From NCBI GenBank assembly GCA_963774955.1, contig CAVZGV010000003.1, positions 386,981 through 450,980 of the forward strand: DNA of 64,000 nucleotides, read 5' to 3'. The notes below the pieces were generated by a model. That model did no database searches. It was not told the DNA's origin and saw only the letters and a program-made list of their open reading frames with translations. This DNA comes from Candidatus Falkowbacteria bacterium. Its GTDB lineage: Bacteria > Patescibacteriota > Patescibacteriia > CAIXNZ01. The translations under genes and the position numbers were made by a program. Positions 31,695-62,181 of the stretch are shown one piece after another. How positions within the stretch are numbered: position 1 is the first letter of the stretch; every line of letters starts with the position of its first letter.

Positions 31695-34600
31695 ATGAAA
31701 AAATCATTTGAACAAATGAAAGCCCAGACTAAAGCAGTTGAATTGCATCAGAAACTTAAGGGCAGAGAGGGAGCTCTCGGAAATTTTGGTTATCAAGAAC
31801 TTAATTATAAGGAAATAATTCAGGCTTTAAGCGGACCCCAGCCGGGTGAACATTGGCTTTTTTATAAAAAATATCTTGAGGACCTCAGGGCCATGCGCCG
31901 GGAAGAAAGAAAAAAATACCGTCAGGCTGGTAAAAGTTTTAAAGAGCCGACCATCGATGCTCTGGCGGAAAAGCTGAGTTTTGGCAGTCTGAGGCTGAAA
32001 CAACTGGAAAGGCTGCAGCAAGATAATGGCCTGGGGCAAGTGACCAGAATTTTTACTGATGAACAGGTTCTTGAAGCTAGTAAAGATCAGGCGGCTTTTA
32101 AACGGACTATAGATGATGTCCTGGCTAAGCGACCAGAGACGATTTTTAAAATTTTAACTAATTTGCCTAATTTGATCCCGGTAGAACAGGCCAAGCAGTT
32201 AGTACTTAAGGAGATCAAAGATTCGTCACACGTTGGTTTGGGGGAATTGGATGCCTGTGTTGGAATTTTTTCACCCGGTGAAGTCAGGCAAATCATCACT
32301 GAAGCTATTACAGATAAAAAGCTCGATCCTTTTTCATTGTTTTCTTATAAAGATTATAAAAAATATTTGCCCAAAGATGAGGTCACGATCCTTTTGAAAA
32401 ATGATTTACTGACACAGGATTATGTTTATTTTTACGATTTTGAGAAATATATAGCTGACGGCTATCTGACTTTTGAGGATCAGACCGCTTATATTATGAC
32501 TAAGCTGAGTCAGACTGAAATTAATAATGATTTTATAAGCAAATTATCCGAGCAGAATATGGCTGAAATGGTTTATAATAAATTGGCAGCAGAAGACCTG
32601 CAAAAAATCGGCGGACTTTTAGTCAAATATTTTTCCGGTGATCCGGCCGGTTTGTATCATTTGCCTGCTTTTGTCAGAATGAATCTGACCAGTCATGAGC
32701 AGGCGGTTGATATTGTCAGACAGTGTATTAAAAATGAAAAATTTCCGCTCTGGAATCTGGATACGGCTTTAAAATTTTTAGCTGCTGATGAAATCCAGCC
32801 GCTGTTAGCTCGCGCCATTACTGCAAACCCCGATGAGATAATCAGAAATTTTCGCACTTACAGCAAATATATGACTGCAGAACAGGCGACCACGGCGATT
32901 ATGGAAGCGGTTTCGTCCCGGCCGACGGTAGTGGCCGAGAATTCGGATTTAATTAATGAGCATATCAAAGATCCGGATGTGCGCCAAAAATTGTTAAATC
33001 AGGTTATTGGCAGTATCAGTCCAAATGCATTTTGTCGGAACGCAGATGAGTTGTTTGAGGCTTTAAAAATTAGCGATGCCACTGAACAGAAAACCATGAT
33101 TACCAAAAAATTGTTTGAAGAGCCGAGCTTTGAATATTTAAGTAACAGTAAGATCGTCTCACGTTTCAGCCCCCAGGAAATTGAAGAGATTGTGGCTAAA
33201 CAGCTAGAGCTGGGGCTGGGCAATATGCTGGAAAATTTGGAAAGCGTCCGCCAGGTAGTCGGTGGGGATAAGGAGCTAAAAAAGATTATTCTGGACGGGG
33301 TAGACAAGGATCCTTCGGGATTTTTTACGGGTATTGAAAAAATTCAGTATCTTTTTTCGACTGCTGATTTTGAATTTCTGATCAAACGGGCGACCAAGAC
33401 CCCTCAGGGTATCCACAGCGGTATTTTTGGCTTTGATAAATGGGTACCGCTGGTCAATCCGGAATTTACGGCTGATTTTCTCAGAGAGAGCAGCCCGTAT
33501 TCAGTGGAGTTTTTGTTTTATCAGATCGGTAAATTTTGGAATTATCTGCCTGAAGCTGAGCGGCGTGATTTTTATCTGAAATTGATTGAATATCAGCCGC
33601 TGCTGGCGCTTGATAACGAAAAACAGCTGGCCACGAAATTGCCGGATATCAGCCGAAAAAAAATAATTGAAATTGCCTATCAAAGTGAAAATATGGCTTT
33701 TGCGCCCAAAAGTCTGGATGAAATTTTTCAGCAATTGGACAAAGAAACAGATGATGAAACCAGAATTAATCTGATCGGGCAGGGAGCTCATATTCATCTG
33801 GCCATCAGTCAGATTAAAAAAAATAATTTGAGCCAGAGTTATTTGAAATTATTAAATCAGGAAAGTCTGGGCGTCAAGCGTGAAGCTGAATTGCTGTCAA
33901 CGTTTGAGTGCCTGTCCATGCTGAAGGAAAACAATCCCAAACTGGGTGCGCAGCTGGATAAAATTGAAAATCAGGAGGCGGCTCAGAAAATAATTTTTAA
34001 AGAACTGGCAGCGCTGACAGGACTCAAGGAAAAAATTTCCGACCAGCAGATTGTAAGTTTTTCCCGGGCCATGGAATCGCCGGTGCCCTTTACTATTTAT
34101 TTTTTGCAATACAAAGATTCACCTGAACATGCACAGATTCTGAAGGAAATTTTCCTGTCACTTTTAGACGGAAATTTTAGCGACTGGAAATACGGTGAAC
34201 TGGAAGTCCAAAAAGCCCATAATTATCTGCCGCATAATTTGACGCCGGAGCAATACCAGGCCTGGCAGCAGGATGACAGTCTGACTTTGTTTGAAAGTCT
34301 GGCTTTGAGCACTCATGAAGCGGCTGTGGCTATCCGACAGGAAATAGTCAATAATGCCTTTCATTTTAAGATTGAAGGCTTGGAAGATCAGGAATTGGCT
34401 GTAGATCTGTTGCCCGACATTGCCAAGGAAGCTGTCGTTATCGGCCAGGAACTGGCCAAAACCAATAAGGCGATTGCGGAACTGAAAAAGAGCGGTCAGG
34501 CTGAGTCGGACCAGATGAAAGAACTCCTGGTTTCCCGCGACCAGCTGCAGGCCAATCGTCAGATGCTTTTGACTATCCGCAGTCTAGTCCGTCTGGCCAA

Positions 34601-35327
34601 TCTCAACCCAGAGGAAGTCGCCAGCGGTTATCTGCTTGAGGGTAAAGACAAGAAGAAAAAAGGTGAGACTTTAAAACAGGTGCTTACCGGGATTCGCCGC
34701 GGCACAGCAGCGGAGGGCGCTTTTGTTTTAGATAATATTGAAAGGAAATTAGCCGGATTTCGAAGTCAGAACCAGTCTAAACAAAATTTAATCTGTACTG
34801 ATTCGGGCACGGCCGAAGATTTTCTGCTGGTCGGTGCCAGACCGGTCAATTCCTGCCAGCATTATGCCGATGGCGGTTATAATGATTGCCTGCTGGGTTA
34901 TAGCGGACCGGAAGTCAAGATTCTGATGCTTAAAAATGAAAAGGACAAGCCGGTGGCCCGGGCTATTTTCCGGATACTAAGCGATGAGAAAGGCAATCCC
35001 TGTCTGCATGTGGAACATATTTATTCAGCCTCTATGAACAGCGGAGTTTACCGTTCAATTTACAGCCAGGCTCTGAAAAAAGCCGAAGCTCTGGGTATCC
35101 CGCTTTTTGTCAGCGCCGTTGATGTTGAAGAAATGACTGAAGGCAAGGATAATCAGCTGGCTAAAGCTTTTAATTTCAGGTCCAGTGACACGGTTTTATA
35201 CTCGCAGATCATTCGTGCGCCCAAAATTTATGTTGATTCAGCCGGTGGCGCCAAATCATTCGGCAAGTATCAGCTGTCAAGGCTGCGACAGGTTGAAAAA
35301 ATTGAGGCCGAAGAGCCAAAATCATAA
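31695..35327 (+). CDS. giant (1210 aa) predominantly alpha-helical hypothetical protein
   Basis: Single uninterrupted ORF. No recognisable catalytic motif. The C-terminal ~200 aa are Cys/His-containing and globular-looking. Confidence 0.55.
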   Translation: MKKSFEQMKAQTKAVELHQKLKGREGALGNFGYQELNYKEIIQALSGPQPGEHWLFYKKYLEDLRAMRREERKKYRQAGKSFKEPTIDALAEKLSFGSLRLKQLERLQQDNGLGQVTRIFTDEQVLEASKDQAAFKRTIDDVLAKRPETIFKILTNLPNLIPVEQAKQLVLKEIKDSSHVGLGELDACVGIFSPGEVRQIITEAITDKKLDPFSLFSYKDYKKYLPKDEVTILLKNDLLTQDYVYFYDFEKYIADGYLTFEDQTAYIMTKLSQTEINNDFISKLSEQNMAEMVYNKLAAEDLQKIGGLLVKYFSGDPAGLYHLPAFVRMNLTSHEQAVDIVRQCIKNEKFPLWNLDTALKFLAADEIQPLLARAITANPDEIIRNFRTYSKYMTAEQATTAIMEAVSSRPTVVAENSDLINEHIKDPDVRQKLLNQVIGSISPNAFCRNADELFEALKISDATEQKTMITKKLFEEPSFEYLSNSKIVSRFSPQEIEEIVAKQLELGLGNMLENLESVRQVVGGDKELKKIILDGVDKDPSGFFTGIEKIQYLFSTADFEFLIKRATKTPQGIHSGIFGFDKWVPLVNPEFTADFLRESSPYSVEFLFYQIGKFWNYLPEAERRDFYLKLIEYQPLLALDNEKQLATKLPDISRKKIIEIAYQSENMAFAPKSLDEIFQQLDKETDDETRINLIGQGAHIHLAISQIKKNNLSQSYLKLLNQESLGVKREAELLSTFECLSMLKENNPKLGAQLDKIENQEAAQKIIFKELAALTGLKEKISDQQIVSFSRAMESPVPFTIYFLQYKDSPEHAQILKEIFLSLLDGNFSDWKYGELEVQKAHNYLPHNLTPEQYQAWQQDDSLTLFESLALSTHEAAVAIRQEIVNNAFHFKIEGLEDQELAVDLLPDIAKEAVVIGQELAKTNKAIAELKKSGQAESDQMKELLVSRDQLQANRQMLLTIRSLVRLANLNPEEVASGYLLEGKDKKKKGETLKQVLTGIRRGTAAEGAFVLDNIERKLAGFRSQNQSKQNLICTDSGTAEDFLLVGARPVNSCQHYADGGYNDCLLGYSGPEVKILMLKNEKDKPVARAIFRILSDEKGNPCLHVEHIYSASMNSGVYRSIYSQALKKAEALGIPLFVSAVDVEEMTEGKDNQLAKAFNFRSSDTVLYSQIIRAPKIYVDSAGGAKSFGKYQLSRLRQVEKIEAEEPKS

Positions 35328-35344
35328 TTCGATAATATAAAAAT

Positions 35345-36319
35345 ATGAAAGACCAAATTTTGCCGGAACAGGATCAGGCAAAAATAGCTGACTTGAAAAA
35401 ACAGCTGACCATAGTTGACGGCTGGATTTATTTTGTGATTACGATTTTTCTGGCTTTTATCTGTCTGATATTTTTAATAGATTCTTTCAGTGAAGACAAA
35501 GATTCTATGCTGATGAGTTTTGGATTTAATCAGGCGACCAGCGCCGCCATCTGGAACAATCTGCAGATTGTTGCGGTTTTATTCTTTTTTGTCAGCTTGC
35601 TAACAATCATTGGTTTATTCCAGCGTCATTTTTGGTTACGAAAGAAAATCGGGCTTAAAGGCGTGGATAATCTGACGGATTTATTAATGACTGATATGGT
35701 CAATGTAGCCAAAATTACCACTGGCGAGTCGCCCAATCTTAACGGCAAACCCCGCGTCTTTATCATTCACGGCTGGGGTGGTAAACCCGAAGAAGCCTGG
35801 TTTCCCTGGCTCAAGAAAAAGCTGGAAGCCAAAGGCATCAGCGTCTATGTGCCGGCCATGCCTGACACTGAACATCCGGCTATAGATAAATGGGTGCCGT
35901 ATTTAGCCGCCCAAGTCGGCTGGCCTGACACCAATACTTATTTAGTCGGTCATTCCATTGGCGTGCAGACAATTTTACGCTATTTACAGACACTTGATCG
36001 GCCGGTTGGCGGGGTAGTGGCCGTGGCCGGGTTTTTCACTTTAATCCCAGGATCTTTAGACGGTCCTGGAGAAGAAAAACAAGCCAAGCCCTGGCTGGAA
36101 ACTCCGATTGACACTGACAAAGTTAAGCAAAATACTAATAAAATAATCGCCATTTTTTCTGACACAGATAAGTTTGTGGGATTGGAAAACGTTGATTATT
36201 TTAAAAAACGACTGGGGGCTCAGACATTTGTCTTAAACAAAAAGGGACACATGGGTTCAAGTGACGGCATTCAAGAATTGCCGGAGATTTTGGAGGCAGT
36301 TGAGGAAATAATGAAATAA
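35345..36319 (+). CDS. membrane-anchored alpha/beta hydrolase (YdeN/RBBP9-like serine hydrolase)
   Basis: N-terminal TM helices, then VFIIHGWGGKPEEAWFPWL…VGHSIG (GxSxG nucleophile elbow). Confidence 0.55.
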   Translation: MKDQILPEQDQAKIADLKKQLTIVDGWIYFVITIFLAFICLIFLIDSFSEDKDSMLMSFGFNQATSAAIWNNLQIVAVLFFFVSLLTIIGLFQRHFWLRKKIGLKGVDNLTDLLMTDMVNVAKITTGESPNLNGKPRVFIIHGWGGKPEEAWFPWLKKKLEAKGISVYVPAMPDTEHPAIDKWVPYLAAQVGWPDTNTYLVGHSIGVQTILRYLQTLDRPVGGVVAVAGFFTLIPGSLDGPGEEKQAKPWLETPIDTDKVKQNTNKIIAIFSDTDKFVGLENVDYFKKRLGAQTFVLNKKGHMGSSDGIQELPEILEAVEEIMK

Positions 36320-36429
36320 TAAATTATATAATAAAAGATTTTGGCCGCCCGTTTAGTAGAGACGCATTGCAATGCGCCTCTACCGTCCGCAACCCCATAA
36401 TTAATAGCCAAAATCATAGGTTCAAATAT

Positions 36430-37251
36430 ATGAAACAAATACTATTTTTCTTTGGAACCGTTTTATTCCTGGCCAGTTGCGCGAAGCAAGCGCCGGTTCA
36501 GGTTAATTCTAATCAGCCGGTCAGCCAGAATTGTGAACTCGGGGTAAGTTATGAAAATACAGCGGTCAAACATGTTGGTTGCCAGTGCCCGGAAAACTAT
36601 GAGTTTAAGACCCTGGATATGGGCTGGGGGCCGTGTCCTGAGCCGACAATGAGTGATTGTGCGGCCTCGACTTTAATCTGTGTGAAAAAAGTCGGTACTT
36701 ATCCGCCGATTACAGCTAAAGATTTAACTGATTTATTGGCAGCCGGGGCTGAACTTAATGACACTGATTTGCCGGCTGTTAATTTGCCGGCTGAAATTAA
36801 TTATTACCAGATCGACCGGAAATTTTTTAAACTTGGTGATATTTATCTGGCCTTGGTGAAACAACCATCAATGAATATTAATTTATCCGGGCTGCCTAAT
36901 AATTTTAGTGTCAGTTATGTCGGTCTGATTGCCACCAAAGCCGATCAACAGACCTGGACTGAACTCTTAAAGCTTGAGGACGAAAATCAGACTGACAAAA
37001 ACAATCCCTATTATCTATGGGTTAAAGATAGTAAAATATATTTAAGTGTGGTTGATCAAAACGGCGCTGGCAGCGGCGAAGGCCTGATGAAGGTTTTAAC
37101 TCTCAATGAGCAAAATCACTGGGTTTTGACAGGCTGTTATTATTTTTCTGATACTTTTAATGACGGCGATTATTATCAGCTCAGTCGAGAGCTTGATAAA
37201 TTTGCAGCCAAACCACTGACAGAATGCAGTAATTTACAGTGGCAGGAATAA
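36430..37251 (+). CDS. hypothetical lipoprotein
   Basis: ATG 36430 (MKQILFFFGTVLFLASCAK) gives a signal peptide plus lipobox. The ORF-track start at 36367 is upstream of it. Confidence 0.5.
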   Translation: MKQILFFFGTVLFLASCAKQAPVQVNSNQPVSQNCELGVSYENTAVKHVGCQCPENYEFKTLDMGWGPCPEPTMSDCAASTLICVKKVGTYPPITAKDLTDLLAAGAELNDTDLPAVNLPAEINYYQIDRKFFKLGDIYLALVKQPSMNINLSGLPNNFSVSYVGLIATKADQQTWTELLKLEDENQTDKNNPYYLWVKDSKIYLSVVDQNGAGSGEGLMKVLTLNEQNHWVLTGCYYFSDTFNDGDYYQLSRELDKFAAKPLTECSNLQWQE

Positions 37252-37252
37252 A

Positions 37253-37522
37253 GTGAATTTTATGAAAAAACTTATTCTACTTATAGTCTTAATCTCGGTC
37301 TCGTCGACCCTAACAGCCTGTAATTCTTCGGCAGAATGTGTTAATGATTCTGATTGTAAAATTCTTTTTAGCAATTGTGGTTGCGAGGCCATGTCCGCCA
37401 GCGATCCCAGGACGAAATTGGAAGATGATGATAGAATCTGCGTTATTAATTCGTGCCAAGGGGCCAAGGCCATTTGTGATCAGGGGCGATGTCAGGCGGA
37501 TAAATTTTTAAATAGTAAATAA
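37253..37522 (+). CDS. small Cys-rich lipoprotein
   Basis: Lipobox STLTACNSS. 10 Cys in 89 aa. Confidence 0.45.
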   Translation: MNFMKKLILLIVLISVSSTLTACNSSAECVNDSDCKILFSNCGCEAMSASDPRTKLEDDDRICVINSCQGAKAICDQGRCQADKFLNSK

Positions 37523-37585
37523 TTTTTTAACCAAAATTTTATGTCTAATAAAATTAGATCCGCCTTTGGCGGGAAAAAACATTTT
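37520..37585 (+). repeat. conserved ~45-nt 5' cassette AAATTTTATGTCTAATAA(A/C)ATTAGATCCGCCTTTGGCGGGAAAAA (copy 1 of 3)
   Basis: Near-identical copies at 38075-38140 and 39870-39935. Spans the RBS region, the start codon and the first 13 codons. Contains hairpin CCGCCTTTGGCGG. Confidence 0.65.
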
Positions 37586-38089
37586 TTATTATTAATAATT
37601 TTCGCTTTACTTATATTAAGTGCTGGTTGTGGTGCGCCCACGACTGGGTCTAAAACTCCTGCTGTTCAGGTTGAGTTAACACCGGTTTCCAGTCCTAAAA
37701 CAGGCACAGTCACGTTTTTAGTCCCGACTGCTGATGCCTTAACATATTGTGACGGAGCAAAGATGGATAGTCAGGGTTTTAAAAAAACGATTACTAAGGA
37801 GGTGACTGAAAATCTTGAGGTCACAAATTTGTCAGCCACAGAATTAATAAATAAAACTATGGTTTTAGCGGCCCAAAAAGCTAATTTGACTTCAGTCACT
37901 GATTTGGATCAGGACTTTATCAGAATCAGTAATGGCACTGCCTATATTAAGCCGCTTGATGGCTGGGCAGGCGTCTCGATTTTTTTATGCGCCTGGAAAC
38001 CGTTAGTTGAGACTAATCTTTTATATTTAGCCGATATAACTAAGGTTGTCTGGTTGGATGATTATCAGCAATGGGAGGAATTAAAATAA
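37541..38089 (+). CDS. lipoprotein with the conserved MSN(K/N)IRSAFGGK N-terminus (family member 1)
   Basis: Begins inside the conserved ~45-nt 5' cassette. Lipobox LILSAGCGAP. Confidence 0.55.
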   Translation: MSNKIRSAFGGKKHFLLLIIFALLILSAGCGAPTTGSKTPAVQVELTPVSSPKTGTVTFLVPTADALTYCDGAKMDSQGFKKTITKEVTENLEVTNLSATELINKTMVLAAQKANLTSVTDLDQDFIRISNGTAYIKPLDGWAGVSIFLCAWKPLVETNLLYLADITKVVWLDDYQQWEELK

Positions 38090-38094
38090 ATTTT

Positions 38095-38253
38095 ATGTCT
38101 AATAACATTAGATCCGCCTTTGGCGGGAAAAAATTATTAATCCCAAATCAAGAAAGTTACTCTGCGTTGTTGAAAAGATTTCCTTCTCAATTTCTTGCAT
38201 TTATTCCATATTTAATGAGAGAAATTATCTATAAAAAGAAAAGAACCCCGTAA
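38095..38253 (+). pseudogene. truncated member of the MSNNIRSAFGGK lipoprotein family (52 codons, no signal peptide or lipobox)
   Basis: Carries an identical 5' cassette, but the ORF terminates after 52 aa (MSNNIRSAFGGKKLLIPNQESY…). Confidence 0.4.
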
Positions 38254-38355
38254 GGACAAGCCTTAAAGGGCGCTTTTCGTAGTGATTATATTTATATAAT
38301 CTAGCAATTTATCAGCTTTGTCAGTAGTGTTATACACGTTACCAATCTTAAAAAT

Positions 38356-39867
38356 ATGTCAGAAATAAAACAATTTACTCCTGAAATCAGAGATGAAAAT
38401 AAAGGTCTTGATTCAAATGTGTTTTTTGATCAAAAAGAAGTATTAGAGAAACTGAATCTTGAAAAACTGCCGAAAATGCAGGAATTATATCAGGCTTATG
38501 GTTATGAACAGCCGGAAACTGAAATGGTGGAACAAGAAACTGTAAATTTGAAAACTAATATGGATCAAATTTTTCAGATTTCCCATCAGGCGGCTAGGTT
38601 TGCTTTCAAAGAAATTGCACCGCTGGAAAATATTGCTGAGACTACACCGTTAGGTGAGTTGGAAATGGGTATTAATGTTTATCGAGGGAGTGAGAGCGGT
38701 TTAAGAACTATCAGGTTTAATCTGAATAAAGCCGGGGCTAAAGATAGAGTCGCTAGTTTTTTTATTCAGCAAGACAGTGAAAATGAAAATAACTGGGATC
38801 TGGGGCATCGGTTGATTGAACCCCAGTATCGTAATCAGAATTTAGGTACTAAGATGCTTGAATTAGTAGAGTCAGGTGTTCAGCAAATGGCTGATTTGAA
38901 AAATGAAAATCAGGAGTTAAGTCTGGAAGCCAGTCAGATCGGTGTTATTCTTTTTGCTTTAAAAAACGGTTATCAACCGGCGGAGCCGGAAGACTTGGCG
39001 AGACTCAAAGAAGTTTTAAAAGGTGATAAAGATAAATATTTCCTTACTACTGGTAAAGGGTATCAGCGCGATGGCCGGCAGGTTCCTGGTTATATATATG
39101 AAAGACAAAAGATAACTGAAGCCGTCAAAGAAGCTGGTCAAGAGGTTAGTCCTCAGGAATTGGAAAAATTTAATCTGGATAATATTTTTTACGGTGATCC
39201 TGATGCTTATTTTAATAATTCTGTTAAAATAAAATTAGTCAAAAATTTTACTCCGATCGGTCCGCCTTGGTCGTTAGCAGGGGATGGTAAAACAATAGAA
39301 AAATATTCAGATTTCAATAGGAATGCTTACCTTGAAATGAAATATCCTGATAATCCGTTATTCAAACCTGAATTTTCCAAGGAGATTCCGAAAAATTTTG
39401 TCAGTGTCTATCGTTTAGTGCCGGAAGAAATGCTTAAACAGATCGGGCAGGAGGGGATTAAGGATATTAAAGAAGCCCAGAATCCTTATAGGCAAAAATA
39501 CGACCGGCTGATTGACAGTGTAGCTCCGGCTGGTTTTCACCGAGTAGGCGCAATTTATGCTTATCCTGAATTGAGCAGCCAGCCTGTTCTTGAAGGTGGA
39601 GATTTTATTTTGTTGGAAATAAAAATTGATCCTGATAAGGTCTTGGTTGCTGACGGGGAATGTGCTTTAAGTGTCGGCGATAAACTTTTTAGAAAATGGG
39701 ATGATTCAGCGCTTAAATCTGCGAAAGAATACTGGCAAAAAGCTAAGACTTTGACTGAATATAATAAACAAAGAGGTACTTATCAGTTTAATGCCCCGGA
39801 AATTATTATACCGTTTGATTTGGATGAAAAATATATTAGAGTGCATGATATGACTAATCAATCATAA
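38356..39867 (+). CDS. hypothetical protein with a possible GNAT-like segment
   Basis: 503 aa. IEPQYRNQNLGTKMLELVE resembles GNAT motif A. Weak. Confidence 0.4.
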   Translation: MSEIKQFTPEIRDENKGLDSNVFFDQKEVLEKLNLEKLPKMQELYQAYGYEQPETEMVEQETVNLKTNMDQIFQISHQAARFAFKEIAPLENIAETTPLGELEMGINVYRGSESGLRTIRFNLNKAGAKDRVASFFIQQDSENENNWDLGHRLIEPQYRNQNLGTKMLELVESGVQQMADLKNENQELSLEASQIGVILFALKNGYQPAEPEDLARLKEVLKGDKDKYFLTTGKGYQRDGRQVPGYIYERQKITEAVKEAGQEVSPQELEKFNLDNIFYGDPDAYFNNSVKIKLVKNFTPIGPPWSLAGDGKTIEKYSDFNRNAYLEMKYPDNPLFKPEFSKEIPKNFVSVYRLVPEEMLKQIGQEGIKDIKEAQNPYRQKYDRLIDSVAPAGFHRVGAIYAYPELSSQPVLEGGDFILLEIKIDPDKVLVADGECALSVGDKLFRKWDDSALKSAKEYWQKAKTLTEYNKQRGTYQFNAPEIIIPFDLDEKYIRVHDMTNQS

Positions 39868-39888
39868 CTAATTTTTAAAATAAATTTT

Positions 39889-40392
39889 ATGTCTAATAAC
39901 ATTAGATCCGCCTTTGGCGGGAAAAACATAATCATTTTACTTTTATTGACTTTAAGTCTAAGTTTTTTGACGGGTTGTAAAAAACCGAGTACTGACACTG
40001 TGCCATCGTCCATGACCTATATTGGCACAAAATATGTCAATTGCCGATTAAGTCCGGATTTTCCTGCAGTTGCCGCTAAGGTCACTGAATTATCAGGTTT
40101 AGTCAGCCGTCCTGGTGTTTCTAGGCAGTCGGTATTATTAAACAGCGTAGCCATTGATAATAATGTTTTGTATAATCCGGTTACCAACGATTCTTTTACA
40201 TCTTATAGCGGTTTTCGGGCAGCATTGAATAAACATATTACAGTTAAAGGTTATACTGGCGATAAAATTGATGGCTATAATATATTCTATGTCACTGATG
40301 TTCCTGGCTGGCATTATGTTTGTTGTGATGCGACTTTGGAAGATACCGGGCAAATATCTACGCCCAATGTCTGCCATTGGTTTGAAAAATAA
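39889..40392 (+). CDS. lipoprotein with the conserved MSNNIRSAFGGK N-terminus (family member 3)
   Basis: Same 5' cassette. Lipobox SFLTGCKKP. Confidence 0.55.
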   Translation: MSNNIRSAFGGKNIIILLLLTLSLSFLTGCKKPSTDTVPSSMTYIGTKYVNCRLSPDFPAVAAKVTELSGLVSRPGVSRQSVLLNSVAIDNNVLYNPVTNDSFTSYSGFRAALNKHITVKGYTGDKIDGYNIFYVTDVPGWHYVCCDATLEDTGQISTPNVCHWFEK

Positions 40393-40577
40393 TTATATTT
40401 TCAGCCATTTTCGCCTCGGCTATGATTTTTTTATAAAATATGATATTTTTTAAATAACAAAGTTAATAATGTCTGCCTTGTGCAGGCCAGGAATAAACAA
40501 TTTAACAAAGGCCGCTTAGGCATGAAACTTCCTTCTACGCTTAGGAGGACATGTCAGTGGCCGAAGGGAGGCAGGAA

Positions 40578-40947
40578 AATGTTGAGAATTTCGCGGTTAA
40601 TGGGAGTCCTGTTGTGGCTGTTTTCGTTCCAGGTCTTTGCCTTGATCAGTCAGAGCATGCCGGCGCAGAACTTTTGGCTGGATGTGGGCACGGCCTTGGG
40701 CATGTTCGTGGTCGCCGCCTTCGTGCTCGGTCTCAGCCTCACGGACAATTCGGATTTGTCGTACGTCAGCACCTTGTTTCTGGTCGTGGTGGCCAGTGCT
40801 GTGATGACTTTTCGATTCCTTGGCCAGACGCCCTATGTCTGGTACGACCTGATGATCATCATGGCTGCGCCTCAGGTCATGGCCCTGGCCATTGGTTTTA
40901 GCTTAACCACGCGACAATCCCGGGCCGACTTGCAGTCCAGCCCCTGA
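40578..40947 (+). CDS. hypothetical membrane protein (GC-rich)
   Basis: RBS GGGAGG precedes ATG 40578 (MLRISRLMGVLLWLFSF…). Strong terminator GCGGCACTCTTTCGAAAGAGGCCGC plus T8 at 40968-41000. Confidence 0.45.
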
Positions 40948-41097
40948 CATCCGCACCATCTCAAACAAGCGGCACTCTTTCGAAAGAGGCCGCTTTTTTT
41001 TGTCTCAAAAATCAAATAAAGCCTGTCTTGACTTTTATAAAAATATGCGTTATTATTAAGTGTTCTTTATATTTCAACAAAAACAGGAGGATTGACC

Positions 41098-42189
41098 ATG
41101 AACTGGATAGATTTGCATTTGCATACGGCCTATAGTCGGGAAGCGGATAATTTTTTACCGGAGCGCTTGGCCAGTATTGCTGAGGCCAAGGTCAAGCGGC
41201 CTGGTTTGAAGGTTGCCGGGGTGGTTGATCATGACACGATTAACCACTGGGAACCCATGTACCGGGCCCAGCAAAAATTCGCACCCGGCCAATTACCGAT
41301 TATTTTGCCCGGAGTTGAAATCTCATCTTGTTTTACTTTTCTGGGTAAGGTAATTCAGACTCATGTTTTGGGGTTTTTCCCCAAGCTGATTCGTTATGAC
41401 CGGGAAAAATTGGTGCGGGTGGACAAGATTTTCCGTCAACCTTTAACCGATATTCTCAACGGTCGTTGGGCCAAGAATGTCGAGATCCGCATTCAATATC
41501 TGCTGAAAAACAACCTTCTGCCTGCGGGCTATGATGTCCAAAACATGATTGCCCGAGTCAAAGCCAAGAATCAGCACGATCTTGATTTCGTCAGCCAGGA
41601 ATCGCCCAAAGACGGCGATGTTATCAATCTGCCCCTGACGACTTCGCATCTTTTCGTCCTCGAAGTAATGCTCGAAGACGGCTTGATTGAAAGCATTGAA
41701 GAGGGCATGTTGTACCTTGACCGGCACTATGAAGACAAGGTCGCGAAATTGGCCAAGATTCTGGCCCGACGCGAGCAGATTTCTGACGAACAGGCTTATG
41801 CCAAGGCCAGGGTCCTTCAGGGGAGCTGTCACGGCAGTTATGGCGATGACTGGTTCAAGCTGTCGACTCAGGACGCTTTGAGTCTGATTCGTCTGGCCGG
41901 TGGTGTGGCCATCCTGGCTCATCCCATGGTTTCTTTCAAGAAATTCCCGGGCGGGATAACAGCCTTCTTTGAATTTTGCCGCCAGGAATTAATCATTGCC
42001 GGACTGATGGGCCTGGAAGCTTATTATCCTCGGCAAGACGAATATCAGCCGGCAATTATTGAATTTTGCCGTCAAAACGGCCTGATTATCACCGGTGGTT
42101 CAGACGATCATCAGGATGGTCGCAATCACATCGGCGAAGTCATTTGTCCCTATGAAAATGTGGAGCAAATGATCAGCGCGCATCTGTAA
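41098..42189 (+). CDS. PHP-domain metal-dependent phosphoesterase
   Basis: RBS AGGAGG precedes ATG 41098. N-terminal IDLHLHTAYS (PHP motif I). His/Asp-rich motifs downstream (…VVDHDT…, GGSDDH). Confidence 0.6.
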   Translation: MNWIDLHLHTAYSREADNFLPERLASIAEAKVKRPGLKVAGVVDHDTINHWEPMYRAQQKFAPGQLPIILPGVEISSCFTFLGKVIQTHVLGFFPKLIRYDREKLVRVDKIFRQPLTDILNGRWAKNVEIRIQYLLKNNLLPAGYDVQNMIARVKAKNQHDLDFVSQESPKDGDVINLPLTTSHLFVLEVMLEDGLIESIEEGMLYLDRHYEDKVAKLAKILARREQISDEQAYAKARVLQGSCHGSYGDDWFKLSTQDALSLIRLAGGVAILAHPMVSFKKFPGGITAFFEFCRQELIIAGLMGLEAYYPRQDEYQPAIIEFCRQNGLIITGGSDDHQDGRNHIGEVICPYENVEQMISAHL

Positions 42190-50966: not shown

Positions 50967-52292
50967 ATGACTTACTCAATAATCCCCAAATCCCACTTGG
51001 AAGGCGCTCTGCGTCTAGACCCGGAATACTATCAGCCGGAGTATTTGGAATTGATAAAAAAACTCGAGAAGTTGACTGATAAAAAATTGAAAGATTATGC
51101 TATTAACATTTCCAGGGGGTTTAAACCAATCAAGGGCGACTTTTTTAATTATATTGAAATATCAGAAATTGATTTAGGGAATGGTACTTTTAATGAATCT
51201 AAAATTCTAGGTGAGGAAGCACCGGATAGGGCGCAAAAAGTTGTAAAAGAGGGCGACGTTATTGTGTCTACTGTCAGGCCTAATAGAAATGCTGTTTCTT
51301 TGATCAGGGCAGAGCATAACAATTTTGTTGCTTCGAGCGGTTTTTGCAATATTGAACCTCGAAAAGTTTCTTCAGAGTATTTATTCGCTTATCTAAAAAC
51401 TAATCATGTTATAAAGCTATTGGACAGATTGACTTCCGCAAGCATGTATCCCGCGGTAACAGAGGAAGACATAATGAATTTACCTTTTTATGTTAAAAAT
51501 GAGCAAGCTATTATTAAATTAGTAAAAGAAGTTTTTGAGCAAATTGAGAAATCGAAATCGCTTTACGCCCAAGCCGAAGATTTACTGCTTGAAGAATTGG
51601 GTATTAATGATTTGGAATCAGAAGAAGATTTAACTTTTACAGCTACTTTAAAGGATTGCCTGCAAGCTGTTCGTATTGATGCTGATTTTTTTCAGCCGAA
51701 GTATGAGAGGATTTTAAGTAAAATAAAAGTTAAAAGGGAGAAATTAAGTAATTTAGTTTCTTTACAAAAGGGGATTGAGCCAGGCAGTGAAGAATATGCG
51801 GAAGAAGGCAAGCCGTTTATTCGCGTATCCAATATGTCCAAGTTCGGCTTAAATGATAATAATCAGCAATATTTGAGCGAGAAAATGTATAATGAATTGA
51901 AAGATAAATATCAGCCTCAAAAGGGAGATATTTTATTAAGTAAGGATGCGACTCCTGGCATTGCGGTTTTACTAGAAAAAGATGTTGAGGGTATTATCTC
52001 TGGCGGTACTTTACGATTAAAAATAAAAGATAAAACTTTAGTTCCTCAATACTTATCTTTAGTTTTAAATTCTGTAATTTGCCAAATGCAAATCGAAAGA
52101 GATGCTGGTGGGTCAATTATTATTCACTGGAGACCTGATCAAGTGGAAAATACAATTATTCCTATTTTACCCATCAAAATCCAGCAAAAAATTGCTGATT
52201 TGGTCAGTGAATCTTTTAAGTTAAGAAAAGAGGCCAAGGAACTACTAGAAGAAGCGAAAAAGAGGGTGGAGGAGGAGATTGAGAAGAAATAA
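50967..52292 (+). CDS. hsdS: restriction-modification specificity subunit (HsdS-like, two TRDs)
   Basis: GDVIVSTVRPNRNAV, YPAVTEEDIMNLPFYV, IPILPIKIQQKIADLV and a C-terminal coiled-coil spacer. 441 aa. Confidence 0.7.
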   Translation: MTYSIIPKSHLEGALRLDPEYYQPEYLELIKKLEKLTDKKLKDYAINISRGFKPIKGDFFNYIEISEIDLGNGTFNESKILGEEAPDRAQKVVKEGDVIVSTVRPNRNAVSLIRAEHNNFVASSGFCNIEPRKVSSEYLFAYLKTNHVIKLLDRLTSASMYPAVTEEDIMNLPFYVKNEQAIIKLVKEVFEQIEKSKSLYAQAEDLLLEELGINDLESEEDLTFTATLKDCLQAVRIDADFFQPKYERILSKIKVKREKLSNLVSLQKGIEPGSEEYAEEGKPFIRVSNMSKFGLNDNNQQYLSEKMYNELKDKYQPQKGDILLSKDATPGIAVLLEKDVEGIISGGTLRLKIKDKTLVPQYLSLVLNSVICQMQIERDAGGSIIIHWRPDQVENTIIPILPIKIQQKIADLVSESFKLRKEAKELLEEAKKRVEEEIEKK

Positions 52293-52295
52293 ATA

Positions 52296-52320
52296 AAAAT
52301 CTCATCTAAAATATTTTTTA
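52296..52320. repeat. REP-like intergenic motif AAAAATCTCATCTAAAATATTTTTTA (copy 1)
   Basis: Variants at 54369-54395, 54714-54740, 55689-55715, 59652-59688 (CCCCTAAGGGG variant), 60718-60745 and 62154-62181. Always sits between a stop and the next start. Confidence 0.6.
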
Positions 52321-52336
52321 AAATAACTAAAAATCT

Positions 52337-53923: not shown

Positions 53924-54065
53924 GGAATTGAGATATTTTCAAAATATTTACAGAAGGAGTCATGGGGTGAGGAGGGAATAAAGGAACGCGCAAATGAACT
54001 TTATGATTATATGGTTAAGAATGTTTGGAACTTGAAGTTTTAAAAAACAGAGGAATTTTATATTT

Positions 54066-54365
54066 ATGATAAAAGCTATCAGTATGAATGATGAGGGCAG
54101 GGTTAAGAATTTTATTCAAAGCAACCATTGGATTTTCGCTAAAACTTATGCTAAGACTGCTCCTCACGAATATGTCTGTCGGGATTATCTTGATGACTCA
54201 ATGAAAAATGAATTTGTTTGGTTTGTTGAATTTATCAGAAAAAACGGAAACCCGGAAAAGTTTTTCAATTCAGAATATATTTATTTTCCTATCGACGGAT
54301 ATAAATACTGGACTATGGGTAATCCAATTGACGAAACTACTATTATAAATAGAGCGATTGTTTAA
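54066..54365 (+). CDS. hypothetical small protein
   Basis: 99 aa. Flanked on both sides by the REP-like motif. Confidence 0.4.
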   Translation: MIKAISMNDEGRVKNFIQSNHWIFAKTYAKTAPHEYVCRDYLDDSMKNEFVWFVEFIRKNGNPEKFFNSEYIYFPIDGYKYWTMGNPIDETTIINRAIV

Positions 54366-54397
54366 AATAAAAATCACATCTAAAATATTTTTTAGAT

Positions 54398-54715
54398 ATG
54401 TCGAAAAATCCTAATAAACAATTCATTGTTAATTTACAGGAGATGCAACTCGAGCGGGTTTGTTTTATAAAAATATCAGTCAGTAAGTCTCAGATTATTA
54501 AAAGAATCGGAGCCAAGCTTAGTGCGGAGATTTTAAGCCATGTCAAACCAATGAAGCTTTATGGCGTGAGCCGATATTTATACGCGGATATTAAAAAATA
54601 TTTAAATAAGACCAGTCAGGGCAGGGATTTGTTTATAGAACTCGTCGGCGGACAATCGTGTTTTTTGCCTCCAATCAATAAACATAGACAGGGGAAGCTA
54701 TTTATTAAGTCATAA
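54398..54715 (+). CDS. hypothetical small basic protein
   Basis: 105 aa. Flanked on both sides by the REP-like motif. Confidence 0.4.
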   Translation: MSKNPNKQFIVNLQEMQLERVCFIKISVSKSQIIKRIGAKLSAEILSHVKPMKLYGVSRYLYADIKKYLNKTSQGRDLFIELVGGQSCFLPPINKHRQGKLFIKS

Positions 54716-54737
54716 AAATTTCATCTAAAAAATTTTT

Positions 54738-55340: not shown

Positions 55341-55395
55341 GGTTTGACGTATTTAAAATAATTTTAAAGATAAAAATCTGCCTTTTCATGTTATT

Positions 55396-56196: not shown

Positions 56197-56203
56197 GAAA
56201 TTA

Positions 56204-60777: not shown

Positions 60778-61581
60778 ATGTCCAGCGAAGCGGAATCCCG
60801 CGTCTCGGGAAAAAAACTCGGATTGATCATATTGCCAATGTTGATCTTAATTATTTCAGGTTGCAGTCTGCCTTGGCAGGCGCCGCAACAGGTTGGCTGC
60901 GACCTGGACGCCAAACTTTGTCCGGATGGATCAGCTGTCGGCCGTAGCGGACCAAACTGCGAGTTTGCGGCTTGCCCGCAGATTGATATCAACCCTGCGA
61001 TTACTGATTTTAATTCCTGTTCCGCGGCCGGTTATCCGATTATGGAAAGTTATCCCCGACAATGCCGGGCTAATGGCCGGACTTATACGGAAAGATTGAT
61101 TGATAATAACAGCTCTAGTTGCACGATTAGTCCTAATTGCCAGCTGCCAATGGATTATGCGGTTCGTTCTAATTGTCCATACCAAGCTTATTGTTATAAT
61201 CAAAAATGCGTAGTCGGCTGTCCGTTATGGGATGAACCAACAAATTCTTGGGAGGTAAAATGTTCGGTTGATAAAGATTGTAATTGTGCTGCCTGGAATG
61301 AACAGGAAAATTATACTTGCGCTTGTGTGGACGGCCAATGCGCTTCTATTGTCTCCGGTCCAAGTTCTGAACAACCTGGTCCGGCCGCAGGCGATTATGC
61401 TGCTGATTGTCTCAAAAACAATGGTAATTGGCTGGAACAATATCGTGAGTGTGAATATAGCAGCCAAACCTGGTGTGATCAGGCTGGCGGTGTGTTTAAA
61501 GAATGTGAATCAGCTTGCCGCCATGATCCGCAGGCACAAATGTGCACCTTGCAATGCGTGCCCGTGTGCCAGTTGAAATAA
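60778..61581 (+). CDS. secreted Cys-rich lipoprotein
   Basis: ATG 60778 (MSSEAE…LILIISGCSLP). More than 30 Cys. Confidence 0.5.
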   Translation: MSSEAESRVSGKKLGLIILPMLILIISGCSLPWQAPQQVGCDLDAKLCPDGSAVGRSGPNCEFAACPQIDINPAITDFNSCSAAGYPIMESYPRQCRANGRTYTERLIDNNSSSCTISPNCQLPMDYAVRSNCPYQAYCYNQKCVVGCPLWDEPTNSWEVKCSVDKDCNCAAWNEQENYTCACVDGQCASIVSGPSSEQPGPAAGDYAADCLKNNGNWLEQYRECEYSSQTWCDQAGGVFKECESACRHDPQAQMCTLQCVPVCQLK

Positions 61582-61599: not shown

Positions 61600-62181
61600 A
61601 TGGATCGTGAATATTTTAAAAATCAATACCGTACCTCAACCAATCGGTTAAATTGTTGGGATTATAATTTGGCGGCAAAGTATTTTGTGACCATTTGCAC
61701 CCATGACCGCCAATGTTGCCTCGGTGAAGTCAAGAACGACAAGGTTATTTTGTTGGAGATTGGGAAGATGGTTTTTGAGGATTTGATGAATATACCCAAA
61801 TTACGCCCATATGTGTTGGTGGATGATTATGTCATCATGCCGAATCATGTACACATTGTTTTTTTATTGAAAGAGAATAATGATTTTGGCCAATCGGACG
61901 GTAGAGACACGGTTAACCGTGTCTCTACAGAACGTAAATTCGGTTCAGTCCCGCCAAAATCATTGTCATCAATTGTTAATACATTTAAAGGCGGCGTAAC
62001 CCGTCGTTGTCATGAAAATAAATTGGATTTCAAATGGCAATCAAATTATCACGAACATATCATCCGCGACGAGGACGATTATGCCCGGATCTGCGAATAT
62101 ATCCGCTGTAACCCGGGTAAATGGTCTGAAGATCGAAATAATCCTTTAAATATAAAAAATCTCATCTAAAATATTTTTTAA
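61600..62181 (+). mobile_element. tnpA: intact IS200/IS605-family (RAYT-like, Y1 HuH) transposase gene (CDS 61600-62169) plus 3' REP-like motif
   Basis: 189 aa with HuH motif MPNHVHIVF and catalytic-Tyr region WQSNYHEHIIRDEDDYARICEYIRCNPGKW. Contains a perfect 28-bp palindrome GTAGAGACACGGTTAACCGTGTCTCTAC (61901-61928). Confidence 0.7.

What the first reader, a model, noticed from the sequence alone, without database searches (positions are those of the whole stretch)
37520..39935. Lipoprotein gene family sharing a nearly identical 45-nt 5' cassette (RBS region plus first 13 codons), including a truncated member
Three occurrences (37520, 38075, 39870) of AAATTTTATGTCTAATAA(A/C)ATTAGATCCGCCTTTGGCGGGAAAAA, encoding MSN(K/N)IRSAFGGK. 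Downstream sequences diverge completely; two give lipoproteins, one a 52-codon stub. Nucleotide-level conservation of only the extreme 5' end, with a built-in hairpin (CCGCCTTTGGCGG) over codons 8-12, suggests a shared translational or regulatory leader, or a recombination handle for cassette switching of surface lipoproteins (variable-surface-protein-like logic).
Basis: seen in the sequence. Interest (0 to 1): 0.55.

Follow-up and report, generated by a model that had tools for sequence, protein, structure and literature searches.

The report
Twin-hairpin mini-repeat at gene starts
The three identical 45-base "leaders" are local copies of a tiny palindromic DNA repeat that sits, mostly in-frame inside protein genes, in well over a hundred genomes of uncultivated bacteria; here it supplies the start codon of two unrelated lipoproteins, so it does not mark a lipoprotein family.

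Summary
An exact 45-mer occurs at 37534, 38088 and 39882 (0 expected by chance), and copies 2 and 3 are identical over 52 nt.

The two lipoproteins are unrelated beyond the leader, and their homologues elsewhere mostly start with a plain MKK. The "stub" is best read as an accidental ORF, created when the cassette landed in the spacer after the first lipoprotein's stop codon.

The hairpin core belongs to a large family, TCCGCC-NRA-GGCGGA-TCCGCC-TTY-GGCGGA-AAAA:
- 72 of 81 copies inside long ORFs read S-A-x-G-G-S-A-x-G-G. They appear as 8-10-residue insertions in GlmS and BipA.
- The stems covary strongly.
- It is absent from Rfam, and I found no paper on it.

Best reading: a REP/REPIN-like or Rickettsia-palindromic-element-like mini-repeat, copied locally together with its flanks. 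A RAYT-like transposase gene lies 22 kb away, but the link is unproven.

A regulatory-leader role for copies at gene starts remains possible. Surface-lipoprotein cassette switching has little support.

The parts
37534..37578 (+). Copy 1 of the 45-nt cassette. The 30-nt twin-hairpin core is 37544-37573 and the ATG is 37541-37543. It sits between LP1's native 5' UTR plus ATG and its Lys-Lys codons.
   Evidence: Exact match. Fold: two hairpins. Element-free LP1 orthologues in L173/L174 read ...TTAACAAAAATTT ATG AAA AAA TTT. R1 covariance model: 51 bits.
37541..38089 (+). LP1, a 182-aa lipoprotein (lipobox LSAGC) of a Patescibacteria family with an invariant WAGVSIF.C.W.P motif. The cassette ATG is its only usable start codon.
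   Evidence: No ATG/GTG/TTG lies in frame between the upstream stop codon and the lipobox (sequence).
38081..38132 (+). Copy 2 (52 nt identical to copy 3; core 38098-38127). Its first 9 nt, TTAAAATAA, are LP1's last two codons plus the stop codon. The rest is inserted into the LP1-downstream spacer.
   Evidence: L001/L004/L006 read TAA-T-AATTATTAAT where the window reads TAA-[ATTTTATG...GGGAAAA]-AATTATTAAT. Chance of such a 10-mer match: 0.7%.
38095..38253 (+). The 52-codon "stub" ORF. It is most likely an accidental ORF opened by the cassette's ATG, not a truncated lipoprotein (no signal peptide).
38133..39874 (+). 1.74-kb segment between copies 2 and 3. It carries a 503-aa ORF (38356-39867) whose N-terminal half is related to a protein that JGI names a predicted GNAT acyltransferase.
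   Evidence: GC of 36.1% is unremarkable for this window. A 1802-bp Logan contig ends exactly k-1 = 30 nt inside each repeat, which is an assembly-graph break and not evidence for a circle.
39875..39926 (+). Copy 3 (core 39892-39921). It supplies the start codon and the first 12 codons of LP3. Its 5' flank repeats LP1's TTAAAATAA.
39889..40392 (+). LP3, a 167-aa lipoprotein (lipobox LTGC), unrelated to LP1. Its two homologues start MKQKYYYP... and MKKIYFF..., without the leader.
60778..60816 (+). Probable degenerate fourth copy (ATG TCCAGC GAA GCGGAA TCCCGC GTC TCGGGA AAAAAA) in lipoprotein ORF 60763-61581: MLNKT|MSSEAESRVSGKK|LGLIILPMLILIISGC.
   Evidence: R1 hit of 14.2 bits, E=5e-4, with filters off. 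Sequence. The fold is not significant on its own.
61600..62169 (+). RAYT-like Y1 (HUH) transposase gene. It is a candidate mobilising enzyme, not a demonstrated one. Further copies or fragments lie at 55395-55700, 60316-60717 and 63939-63998.
   Evidence: NCBIfam NF047646 E=7.5e-18, 64.8 bits (cut-off 80). Pfam Y1_Tnp 22 bits (cut-off 23)..

Best explanation
The cassette is a lineage-specific derivative of a miniature palindromic repeat.

Anatomy. The unit is a 15-nt hairpin, TCCGCC-NNN-GGCGGA. The usual element is two units side by side (30 nt, centred on GGATCC), flanked by a T-run (or ATG) on the left and an A-run on the right. It has no stop codon in any frame. In the predominant frame it reads S-A-x-G-G-S-A-x-G-G, a small flexible peptide. 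This would explain why copies survive inside genes, in loops and N-terminal tails.

In this genome, hairpin 1 has changed to TCTAAT/ATTAGA through four fully compensated pair changes.

Proposed local history (inferred):
1. The 30-nt core sits between LP1's native ATG and its AAA AAA codons (copy 1).
2. A 45-52-nt unit (core plus 10-17 nt of left flank, including the ATG, plus the A-run) was copied twice nearby.
3. One copy went into the spacer just after the LP1 stop codon (copy 2), opening a meaningless 52-codon ORF.
4. The other went onto the 5' end of the unrelated LP3 (copy 3), where its ATG is now the start codon.

The peptide MSN(K/N)IRSAFGGK is therefore a by-product that lengthens the n-region of two signal peptides.

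Shown: family membership, twin-hairpin covariation, in-frame insertion, and presence/absence among orthologues.
Inferred: selfish, REP-like spread, and the direction of copying.
Not established: the copying mechanism. The candidates are hairpin-dependent single-strand transposition by a Y1/RAYT-type enzyme (one is encoded 22 kb downstream), or template switching or gene conversion nucleated by the hairpins.
For: Family:
Nearly all hits carry a second hairpin directly 5'.
- LP1 orthologues in L001/L004 carry the canonical version at the equivalent place.
- R1 scores the window copies at 47-51 bits. They were part of its training alignment.

Structure:
- Hairpin 1 was not constrained by the search pattern. 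It is 96.4% paired, and 4 of 6 pairs show changes on both sides. There are 44 compensated cells against 4.7 in shuffles (0/500).
- Copies not selected by the pattern show compensated changes in hairpin 2 as well.
- A single long hairpin is not supported.

In-frame insertion:
- 81 of 122 copies lie in ORFs of at least 150 codons, and 72 of those are in the SAxGG frame.
- Alignments to solved GlmS and BipA structures place the element peptide opposite 10- and 8-residue gaps.

Presence/absence:
- 22 of 26 LP1-family proteins and both LP3 homologues lack it.
- The four LP1 carriers are not monophyletic in a neighbour-joining tree.

Local copying with flanks.

Dispersed repeat: about 37 further copies in roughly 0.9 Mb of flanking DNA, including arrays of 3-5 units.

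Candidate enzyme: RAYT-like gene copies in the window.

Not an annotated RNA family: no Rfam match at the element.
Against: - No GTAG/CGTC tag and no REP-flanked RAYT. No RAYT gene lies near the element in 172 other loci, apart from one weak hit.
- The stem sequence is nearly the same across phyla, yet copies within one genome are no more alike than copies from different genomes. That is unlike ordinary REPIN populations. It hints at a shared constraint or function.
- Copies flanked by ATG are N-terminal in 38 of 44 loci, with another in-frame ATG 4-6 codons upstream, and about two thirds (by eye) precede signal peptides. Only 2 of about 100 unselected copies have an ATG flank. Passive tolerance alone does not obviously explain this.
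- Dragging of flanking bases fits recombination at least as well as transposition.
- Only 64 kb of the 565-kb source contig could be examined.
Confidence: 0.6

Rival explanations
1. Functional 5' leader. At gene starts, the twin hairpin is a maintained mRNA (or operator) structure that sets translation initiation or mRNA stability, especially for exported proteins. In this genome it acts as a portable start-codon module.
For: - 38 of 44 ATG-flanked copies are N-terminal. A second in-frame ATG lies 4-6 codons upstream, which puts the hairpin foot at +15 to +21 from the first AUG. From general knowledge, that is just outside an initiating ribosome's footprint.
- About two thirds (by eye) are followed directly by a signal peptide, lipobox or transmembrane segment.
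- Where the cassette ATG is the only start (this window), hairpin 1 is weak: -1.4 against -8.9 kcal/mol.
- In L001/L004/L006 the promoter plus leader is 90-98% identical while the gene body is 40-75% identical.
- In the predicted fold, the G of the AUG is paired in copies 2 and 3.
Against: - Most family copies are mid-gene or intergenic.
- Copy 2 sits in a spacer and opens a junk ORF.
- Most LP1 and LP3 orthologues do without it.
- The fourth window copy is decaying, and its fold is no better than shuffles.
- N-terminal tails and n-regions may simply be the most tolerant sites. Signal peptides begin ATG AAA AAA, which may be a preferred A-run target.
Confidence: 0.2
2. Recombination handle. 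The cassette is a site at which downstream genes are exchanged or inserted, by integron-like, Campbell-type or phase-variation-like shuffling of surface lipoproteins.
For: - Identical 52-nt direct repeats flank a 1.74-kb segment that carries a very rare gene, with one homologue among 5.8 billion proteins.
- Copy 3's flank repeats LP1's last codons.
- Sequence identity among L001/L004/L006 drops sharply at the leader.
- In L031, a duplicated tRNA-Glu 3' half encloses a short segment that ends in a twin hairpin.
Against: - No integrase or invertase among the ten ORFs scanned around the locus, spanning 31695-42189.
- No silent cassettes, and no further copies within 64 kb apart from one degenerate copy.
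- No integron core site (GTTRRRY) in the 45-mer, by inspection.
- The DNA right of copy 2 matches the native spacer of relatives, so copy 2 looks like a small clean insertion.
- The segment's GC content is ordinary.
- The Logan contig break is a k-mer artefact.
Confidence: 0.1
3. Host recognition signal. The conserved dyad is a DNA signal read by a widely shared host factor, such as a DNA-uptake signal in naturally competent ultra-small bacteria or a protein-binding site. It is kept by function rather than by mobility.
For: - The stems are near-identical across phyla with host GC of 33-60%.
- Copies are absent from 2.9 million viral contigs.
- Reading-frame bias inside genes is also known for uptake sequences (general knowledge).
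- Within-genome copies are no more alike than between-genome copies.
Against: - Stem covariation to quite different sequences (TCAGCC, TCCTCC, TCTGCC, TCTAAT) argues for structure, not for a fixed recognition word.
- Density is low, about one per 20-30 kb, against roughly one per kb for known uptake sequences (general knowledge).
Confidence: 0.05
4. Ordinary recent tandem duplication of a lipoprotein gene's 5' end within a paralogous family.
For: Three copies lie within 2.4 kb on one strand, and copies 2 and 3 are identical.
Against: - The gene bodies are unrelated.
- The same core occurs in well over a hundred other genomes in unrelated genes.
- Orthologues show presence/absence of just the 30-45 nt.
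Confidence: 0.03

Closest known systems
REP / REPIN (BIME) elements mobilised by RAYT (Y1 HUH) transposases
   Same: - Short G+C-rich imperfect palindromes that form stem-loops.
- The usual arrangement is an inverted doublet of a palindromic unit; here loop 2 is the reverse complement of the loop-1 types.
- Dispersed, with singlets, doublets and arrays.
- A RAYT-like gene is present in the same window.
   Different: - The unit is only 15 nt and the doublet has no spacer.
- No GTAG/CGTC tag.
- Mostly intragenic and in-frame rather than extragenic.
- The same sequence is shared across phyla rather than being species-specific.
- The RAYT-like gene is multi-copy and is not flanked by the elements.
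Rickettsia palindromic elements (RPEs), "selfish DNA in protein-coding genes"
   Same: Palindromic repeats inserted in-frame into otherwise conserved proteins. They are tolerated as surface peptide insertions and show presence/absence among orthologues.
   Different: - RPEs are about 100-150 bp and confined to Rickettsia (general knowledge).
- This element is 30-36 nt, reads the same peptide type in both orientations, and spans several phyla.
- No sequence comparison with RPEs was run.
Mitochondrial GC clusters and "byp" elements of yeasts
   Same: Small G+C-rich hairpin elements that spread in A+T-rich genomes, including into coding regions.
   Different: Byps are skipped by translational bypassing. 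These copies keep the reading frame, contain no stop codons, and need no bypass.
Variable surface lipoprotein systems (Mycoplasma vsp/vlp type) and integron attC cassettes
   Same: Same-strand genes, each preceded by a repeated structured sequence. Direct repeats bound a single-gene segment.
   Different: - The shared part stops before the hydrophobic core of the signal peptide.
- The genes are unrelated.
- No recombinase, invertible promoter, silent copies or attC core motifs were found.

Membership tests
REP/REPIN-RAYT | Short (about 20-40 nt) imperfect palindrome forming a stem-loop | tested here: met
   Two 6-bp/3-nt-loop hairpins. Covariation: 44 compensated cells against 4.7 in shuffles, 0/500.
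REP/REPIN-RAYT | Inverted doublet of REP units (REPIN/BIME architecture) | tested here: met
   Loop 1 is NRA and loop 2 is TYT, its reverse-complement type. The first base of loop 1 covaries with the last base of loop 2. The spacer is 0 nt, unlike known REPINs.
REP/REPIN-RAYT | Conserved GTAG or CGTC tetranucleotide at one end (PMC3733652 abstract) | tested here: not met
   The consensus nnnTTTCCGCC...GGCGGAAAAAA of 116 copies has no such tag.
REP/REPIN-RAYT | Extragenic location | tested here: not met
   81 of 122 copies lie in ORFs of at least 150 codons, 72 of them in one reading frame.
REP/REPIN-RAYT | Cognate single-copy RAYT gene flanked by the REPs | tested here: inconclusive
   A RAYT-like gene lies in the window, but it scores below the curated cut-offs, is multi-copy and is not flanked by canonical elements. 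A degenerate copy lies 60 nt from one fragment.
REP/REPIN-RAYT | High copy number with genome-specific sequence | tested here: inconclusive
   3+1 copies in 64 kb. About one extra copy per 20-30 kb in other loci. Copies are not genome-specific. The full source genome was not available.
In-frame palindromic elements (RPE-like) | Repeat inserted in-frame in conserved proteins without disrupting them | tested here: met
   GlmS and BipA alignments to solved structures show 10- and 8-residue insertions. Frame statistics.
In-frame palindromic elements (RPE-like) | Sequence homology to Rickettsia RPE families; length about 100-150 bp | not tested
   No RPE sequences were compared. At 30-36 nt, the length is clearly different.
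Variable surface lipoprotein switching system | Paralogous lipoprotein genes sharing a conserved 5' end and signal peptide | tested here: not met
   LP1 and LP3 share only the first 35 residues, and the nucleotide identity ends at the A-run (codons 12-13).
Variable surface lipoprotein switching system | Adjacent site-specific recombinase, invertible promoter or silent cassettes | tested here: not met
   None among the ten ORFs scanned with Pfam, spanning 31695-42189. No further copies nearby.
Variable surface lipoprotein switching system | Population-level rearrangement at the repeats | not testable with these tools
   No read data. The one other contig (Logan) breaks at the repeats for assembly reasons.
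Integron cassette / attC | attC with RYYYAAC...GTTRRRY cores and an IntI integrase | tested here: not met
   The 45-mer has no GTTRRRY core (sequence). No integrase domain nearby.
Cis-regulatory 5' RNA leader (thermometer-like) | Structure occludes the start region; conserved position relative to the start codon | tested here: inconclusive
   In the predicted fold, hairpin 1 pairs the G of the AUG in copies 2 and 3. 38 of 44 ATG-flanked copies are N-terminal with fixed spacing. Most family copies are not at gene starts.
Rfam families | Match to any curated covariance model | tested here: not met
   No match at the element in the window or in 8 canonical loci.

The most novel reading that the evidence does not exclude
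The twin hairpin is not merely tolerated junk. It is a cross-phylum, positively maintained 30-nt structural module. At gene starts it would work as a portable "ATG + hairpin" initiation or mRNA-structure cassette for exported proteins. Alternatively, it is recognised by a host factor shared by Patescibacteria, Omnitrophota and others. Its stems would then be held constant by that function, and in this genome it can be pasted onto unrelated genes to give them a new start codon.
Probability: 0.2. Interest if true: 0.8.

Novelty: new variant of a known kind. Interest (0 to 1): 0.6.

Why it matters
If the reading is right, it has three consequences.
- **Annotation.** A 30-nt palindrome has inserted itself, in one reading frame, into essential proteins (GlmS, BipA, IspH-like and MetRS-like proteins) and into signal peptides across several uncultivated phyla. 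The motif SA.GGSA.GG or (M)SA[KR]GGSAFGGKK in such proteins should be read as a DNA repeat. It is not a conserved domain, signal or family marker. Start-codon calls around it also need care.
- **Evolution.** It extends the Rickettsia "selfish DNA in coding genes" phenomenon to the smallest known bacterial genomes. It also raises an open question: why is the stem sequence the same in organisms as distant as Patescibacteria and Omnitrophota?
- **Testability.** The window offers a compact test case with three fresh copies that carry flanking bases, one decaying copy, and a RAYT-like gene nearby. It can be used to ask how such mini-elements move and whether they affect translation initiation.

Tried and rejected
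- **Exact window variant.** Exact-match scans for ATTAGATCCGCCTTTGGCGGG(AAAAA) found nothing in genome, metagenome or viral collections. The source genome is not among the species representatives, so the rest of its 565-kb contig could not be scanned.
- **Rfam.** Nothing at the element.
- **Literature.** Searches by peptide (SAFGG), by DNA strings and by topic found no description.
- **Pfam/NCBIfam.** No hits for LP1, LP3, the stub or the 503-aa ORF.
- **Intrinsic terminator.** Rejected. The T-run precedes the hairpins and the A-run follows them on both strands. The one "terminator-like" hit at copy 1 rests on AT-rich coding sequence.
- **Foreign origin of the 1.74-kb segment from GC content.** Rejected. 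Its GC of 36.1% lies inside the window's ORF range of 27.8-54.5%.
- **The 1802-bp Logan contig as evidence of a circular cassette.** Rejected. Its ends lie exactly k-1 = 30 nt inside the repeats.
- **A single long hairpin or cruciform as the conserved structure.** Not supported by covariation, although it is the minimum-free-energy fold of canonical copies.
- **Translational bypass.** Not needed, because the frame is preserved.
- **Physical linkage of RAYT genes to the element in other genomes.** Not seen.
- **Context of the 503-aa ORF's only homologue (L127).** No twin hairpin there.
- **Phage carriage.** The canonical 21-mer is absent from viral contigs.


Full report
**1. Checking the observation**

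The 45-mer is present three times on the + strand, at 37534-37578, 38088-38132 and 39882-39926. None was found in 100 dinucleotide-preserving shuffles. These positions are about 13 nt to the right of the coordinates given.

Copies 2 and 3 are identical over 52 nt (38081-38132 and 39875-39926). Copy 1 differs by one base inside the 45-mer and three bases in the 5' flank. Identity ends abruptly after the A-run in all three.

Each copy begins an ORF:
- LP1, 37541-38089, 182 aa, lipobox LSAGC.
- A 52-codon ORF, 38095-38253.
- LP3, 39889-40392, 167 aa, lipobox LTGC.

There is also a second hairpin directly 5' of it, TCTAAT-AAM-ATTAGA. The only base that differs among the copies falls in its loop. 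The cassette is therefore ATG + hairpin 1 + hairpin 2 + A-run.

**2. The genes are not a family**

LP1 and LP3 resemble each other only in residues 1-35.

LP1 belongs to a Patescibacteria lipoprotein family of 26 proteins, one of which is named for Candidatus Buchananbacteria. Of these, 22 start with a plain MKK... signal peptide. Only the window protein and three others (P0004, P0006, P0019) carry an extension ending in SAFGG(K/E)K. These four do not group together in a neighbour-joining tree of the mature domain. LP3's only two homologues start MKQKYYYP... and MKKIYFF....

The leader is therefore something added to some genes, not an inherited family feature.

**3. What the added piece is**

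In the three other LP1 carriers the DNA reads ATG TCCGCC AGA GGCGGA TCCGCC TTC GGCGGA AAAAAG (L004). L001 has one mismatch in hairpin 1. L006 has hairpin 1 as TCCCGC/GCGGGA and extra bases before hairpin 2. The length and layout match the window cassette. Hairpin 1 differs from the window's at four base pairs, all compensated.

*Distribution*
I estimate about one match by chance.
- Nearly every hit has the second hairpin immediately 5'.
- Of the 80 records whose titles were shown, 46 are Patescibacteria and 10 are Omnitrophota. The rest include Planctomycetota, Kiritimatiellia, Zixibacteria, Nitrospirae and some Gammaproteobacteria MAGs.
- Host GC ranges from 33 to 60%.
- The 21-mer is absent from 2.9 million viral contigs.

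*Structure*
- I aligned 116 copies (A3). Hairpin 1, which the search pattern did not constrain, is 96.4% paired. Four of its six pairs show changes on both sides.
- There are 44 compensated cells against 4.7 in shuffles (0 of 500), and the slid controls collapse.
- A covariance model (R1) then found about 37 more copies in roughly 0.9 Mb of flanking DNA that the exact pattern had missed.
- These extra copies show compensated changes in hairpin 2 too: TCCACC/GGTGGA, TCCTCC/GGAGGA, TCTGCC/GGCAGA and CCCGCC/GGCGGG. They also occur as singlets, triplets and nested copies.
- Loop 1 is typically NRA and loop 2 is its reverse-complement type (TTT, TTC, TCT, TCC). The element is therefore an inverted doublet of a 15-nt palindromic unit centred on GGATCC.
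- Pairing as one long hairpin gains no support from covariation: 89.5% paired against 89.4% in shuffles. It is nevertheless the minimum-free-energy fold of canonical copies.
- One caveat applies to that test. The search pattern fixed hairpin 2 in this alignment, which biases the comparison against the long hairpin.

**4. It sits inside genes, in one frame**

Of 122 copies, 81 lie in ORFs of at least 150 codons, and 72 of those are in the frame that reads S-A-x-G-G-S-A-x-G-G. Because the element is palindromic, both orientations give this frame: 27 read SA[RK]GGSAFGGK and 45 read FSA[KE]GGSASGG. The consensus has no stop codon in any of its six frames (my reading of the sequence).

Hosts include conserved enzymes. 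Aligned to solved structures, a GlmS homologue (L039) and a BipA homologue (L111) show the element peptide opposite gaps of 10 and 8 residues. IspH-like, MetRS-like, thymidylate-kinase-like and methionine-aminopeptidase-like proteins also carry it; I assigned these names by eye from sequence motifs, not with a tool.

No Rfam family matches. Searches of the paper library by peptide, by DNA string and by topic found no description.

**5. The copies at gene starts**

A metagenome scan that required ATG at the left edge gave 44 loci, representing 38 distinct genes.
- In 38 loci (32 genes) the element is N-terminal, and a further in-frame ATG lies 4-6 codons upstream (M-N-x-x-x | M-S-A-[KR]-G-G-S-A-F-G-G-K-K).
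- About two thirds are followed directly by a signal peptide, lipobox or membrane helix. This is by eye; no signal-peptide predictor was run.
- In the unselected genome set, only 2 of about 100 copies have ATG on the left. TTT, TTC and ATT dominate there.

The link between an ATG flank and an N-terminal position is therefore strong, and the selfish-repeat model does not explain it. It may mean that the element tends to land next to ATG AAA AAA, and that a new upstream start is then selected. It may instead mean that these copies have a role in initiation.

In the window there is no upstream start. Stop codons lie 6 codons upstream of copy 1's ATG and 8 codons upstream of copy 3's, with no ATG/GTG/TTG between them and the cassette's ATG. 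The cassette's ATG is therefore the only start. Here hairpin 1 is the weakest variant seen, at -1.4 against -8.9 kcal/mol.

**6. Local history in the window (inference)**

*Copy 1.* LP1 orthologues without the element read ...TTAACAAAAATTT ATG AAA AAA TTT... (L173). The window reads ...TTAACCAAAATTTT ATG [30 nt] AAA AAA CAT.... Copy 1 therefore looks like a 30-nt insertion between LP1's native ATG and its Lys-Lys codons.

*Copy 2.* After the LP1 stop codon, L001/L004/L006 read TAA-T-AATTATTAAT. The window reads TAA-[ATTTTATG...GGGAAAA]-AATTATTAAT. A 10-mer match of this kind occurs in 0.7% of 30-nt windows of this sequence. Copy 2 therefore looks like a 43-45-nt insertion of the core plus LP1-derived flanks into the spacer. 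On that reading the "stub" is an accidental ORF.

*Copy 3.* It carries a further 7 nt (TTAAAAT) that are LP1's last codons in copy 2. It was therefore probably copied from copy 2, or the two arose in a single event.

*Other points.*
- The 1.74-kb segment between copies 2 and 3 holds a 503-aa ORF. Its N-terminal 300 residues resemble a single other protein, which JGI names a predicted GNAT acyltransferase.
- The segment's GC content is ordinary.
- A 1802-bp Logan contig ends exactly 30 nt inside each repeat, which is an assembly-graph break.
- R1, run with filters off, found only one further candidate in the 64 kb. It is a degenerate copy at 60778-60816, at the N-terminus of a Cys-rich lipoprotein with the same M-x4-M-S...G-K-K-signal-peptide layout. 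Its fold is not significant on its own.

**7. Mechanism**

Shown:
- The element is a structured palindromic repeat.
- It is inserted in-frame.
- It varies in presence among orthologues.
- In this window it was copied locally together with flanking bases.

Most likely, but inferred: it behaves like a REP/REPIN- or RPE-type selfish element. It survives where its small Ser/Ala/Gly peptide is harmless, in loops, N-terminal tails and the n-regions of signal peptides.

A candidate enzyme is present. It is a RAYT-like Y1 transposase gene at 61600-62169 (NCBIfam NF047646, E=7.5e-18, below the cut-off), with three further copies or fragments. It is not flanked by canonical elements, and no RAYT gene is linked to the element in other loci. 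I put the probability that it mobilises the element at about one in four. Hairpin-induced template switching or gene conversion would explain the dragging of flanks equally well.

**8. Comparison and verdict**

The closest known kinds are REP/REPIN elements and Rickettsia palindromic elements.
- The element meets the structural criteria for REPs.
- It fails the GTAG/CGTC-tag and extragenic-location criteria.
- It differs from RPEs in size and host range.

It does not fit a variable-lipoprotein switching system or an integron cassette. I rate it a new variant of a known kind.

The finding as written, a lipoprotein leader family, is largely a misreading of a more general and apparently undescribed repeat. 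The surprising parts are the near-identical stems across phyla, the strict reading frame, and the ATG-flanked subfamily at gene starts.

Noticed in passing
window 55395-55700, 60316-60717, 61600-62169, 63939-63998: Three to four copies or fragments (75-100% amino-acid identity) of a RAYT-like Y1 transposase gene within 9 kb. RAYTs are usually single-copy. The coding sequence contains a perfect palindrome, ACACGGTTAACCGTGT.
   Followed up: partly
window 52290-62184 (8 copies, e.g. 55684-55718, 60714-60748, 62150-62184): A 35-nt A+T-rich repeat (core AAAAATCTCATCTAAAATATTTTTT) at gene ends. It overlaps the 3' ends of the RAYT-like copies. Its function is unknown.
   Followed up: no
window 60778-60816: A degenerate fourth twin-hairpin copy at the N-terminus of a Cys-rich lipoprotein (60763-61581), 60 nt downstream of a RAYT-like fragment.
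   Followed up: yes
L001:228-900, L004:9400-10060, L006:13-690: The cold-shock gene, its terminator, the LP1 promoter and the twin-hairpin leader are 90-98% identical between three genomes. Their LP1 bodies and next genes are only 40-75% identical. The drop falls at the leader.
   Followed up: partly
L031:985-1152 (- strand): The 3' half of a tRNA-Glu gene (33 nt) is duplicated around a 64-nt segment that ends in a canonical twin hairpin. This looks like the scar of an integration event. Copies also lie 3-80 nt from the 3' ends of tRNA or tmRNA genes in L016, L022, L080 and L108.
   Followed up: partly
L016:3760-6888, L035:5978-6198, L055:2915-5040, L107:2841-5011: Some genomes carry clusters of 3-5 hairpin units or nested copies within a few kb. 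Other sequences are inserted between the two hairpins in L016:6820-6888, L020, L044 and L119.
   Followed up: no
window 38356-39867: A 503-aa ORF whose N-terminal 300 residues match a single protein (49% identity) among 5.8 billion, named by JGI as a predicted GNAT acyltransferase. The C-terminal 200 residues have no match, and there is no Pfam or NCBIfam hit.
   Followed up: partly
window 55816-56779: An adjacent HTH_31 regulator and Peptidase_M78 (IrrE-like) gene pair, lying between RAYT-like copies.
   Followed up: no
window 36367-37522: Two more small lipoprotein genes (294 aa and 89 aa, the latter Cys-rich) lie directly upstream of LP1. The locus is therefore a run of unrelated small lipoproteins on one strand.
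   Followed up: no
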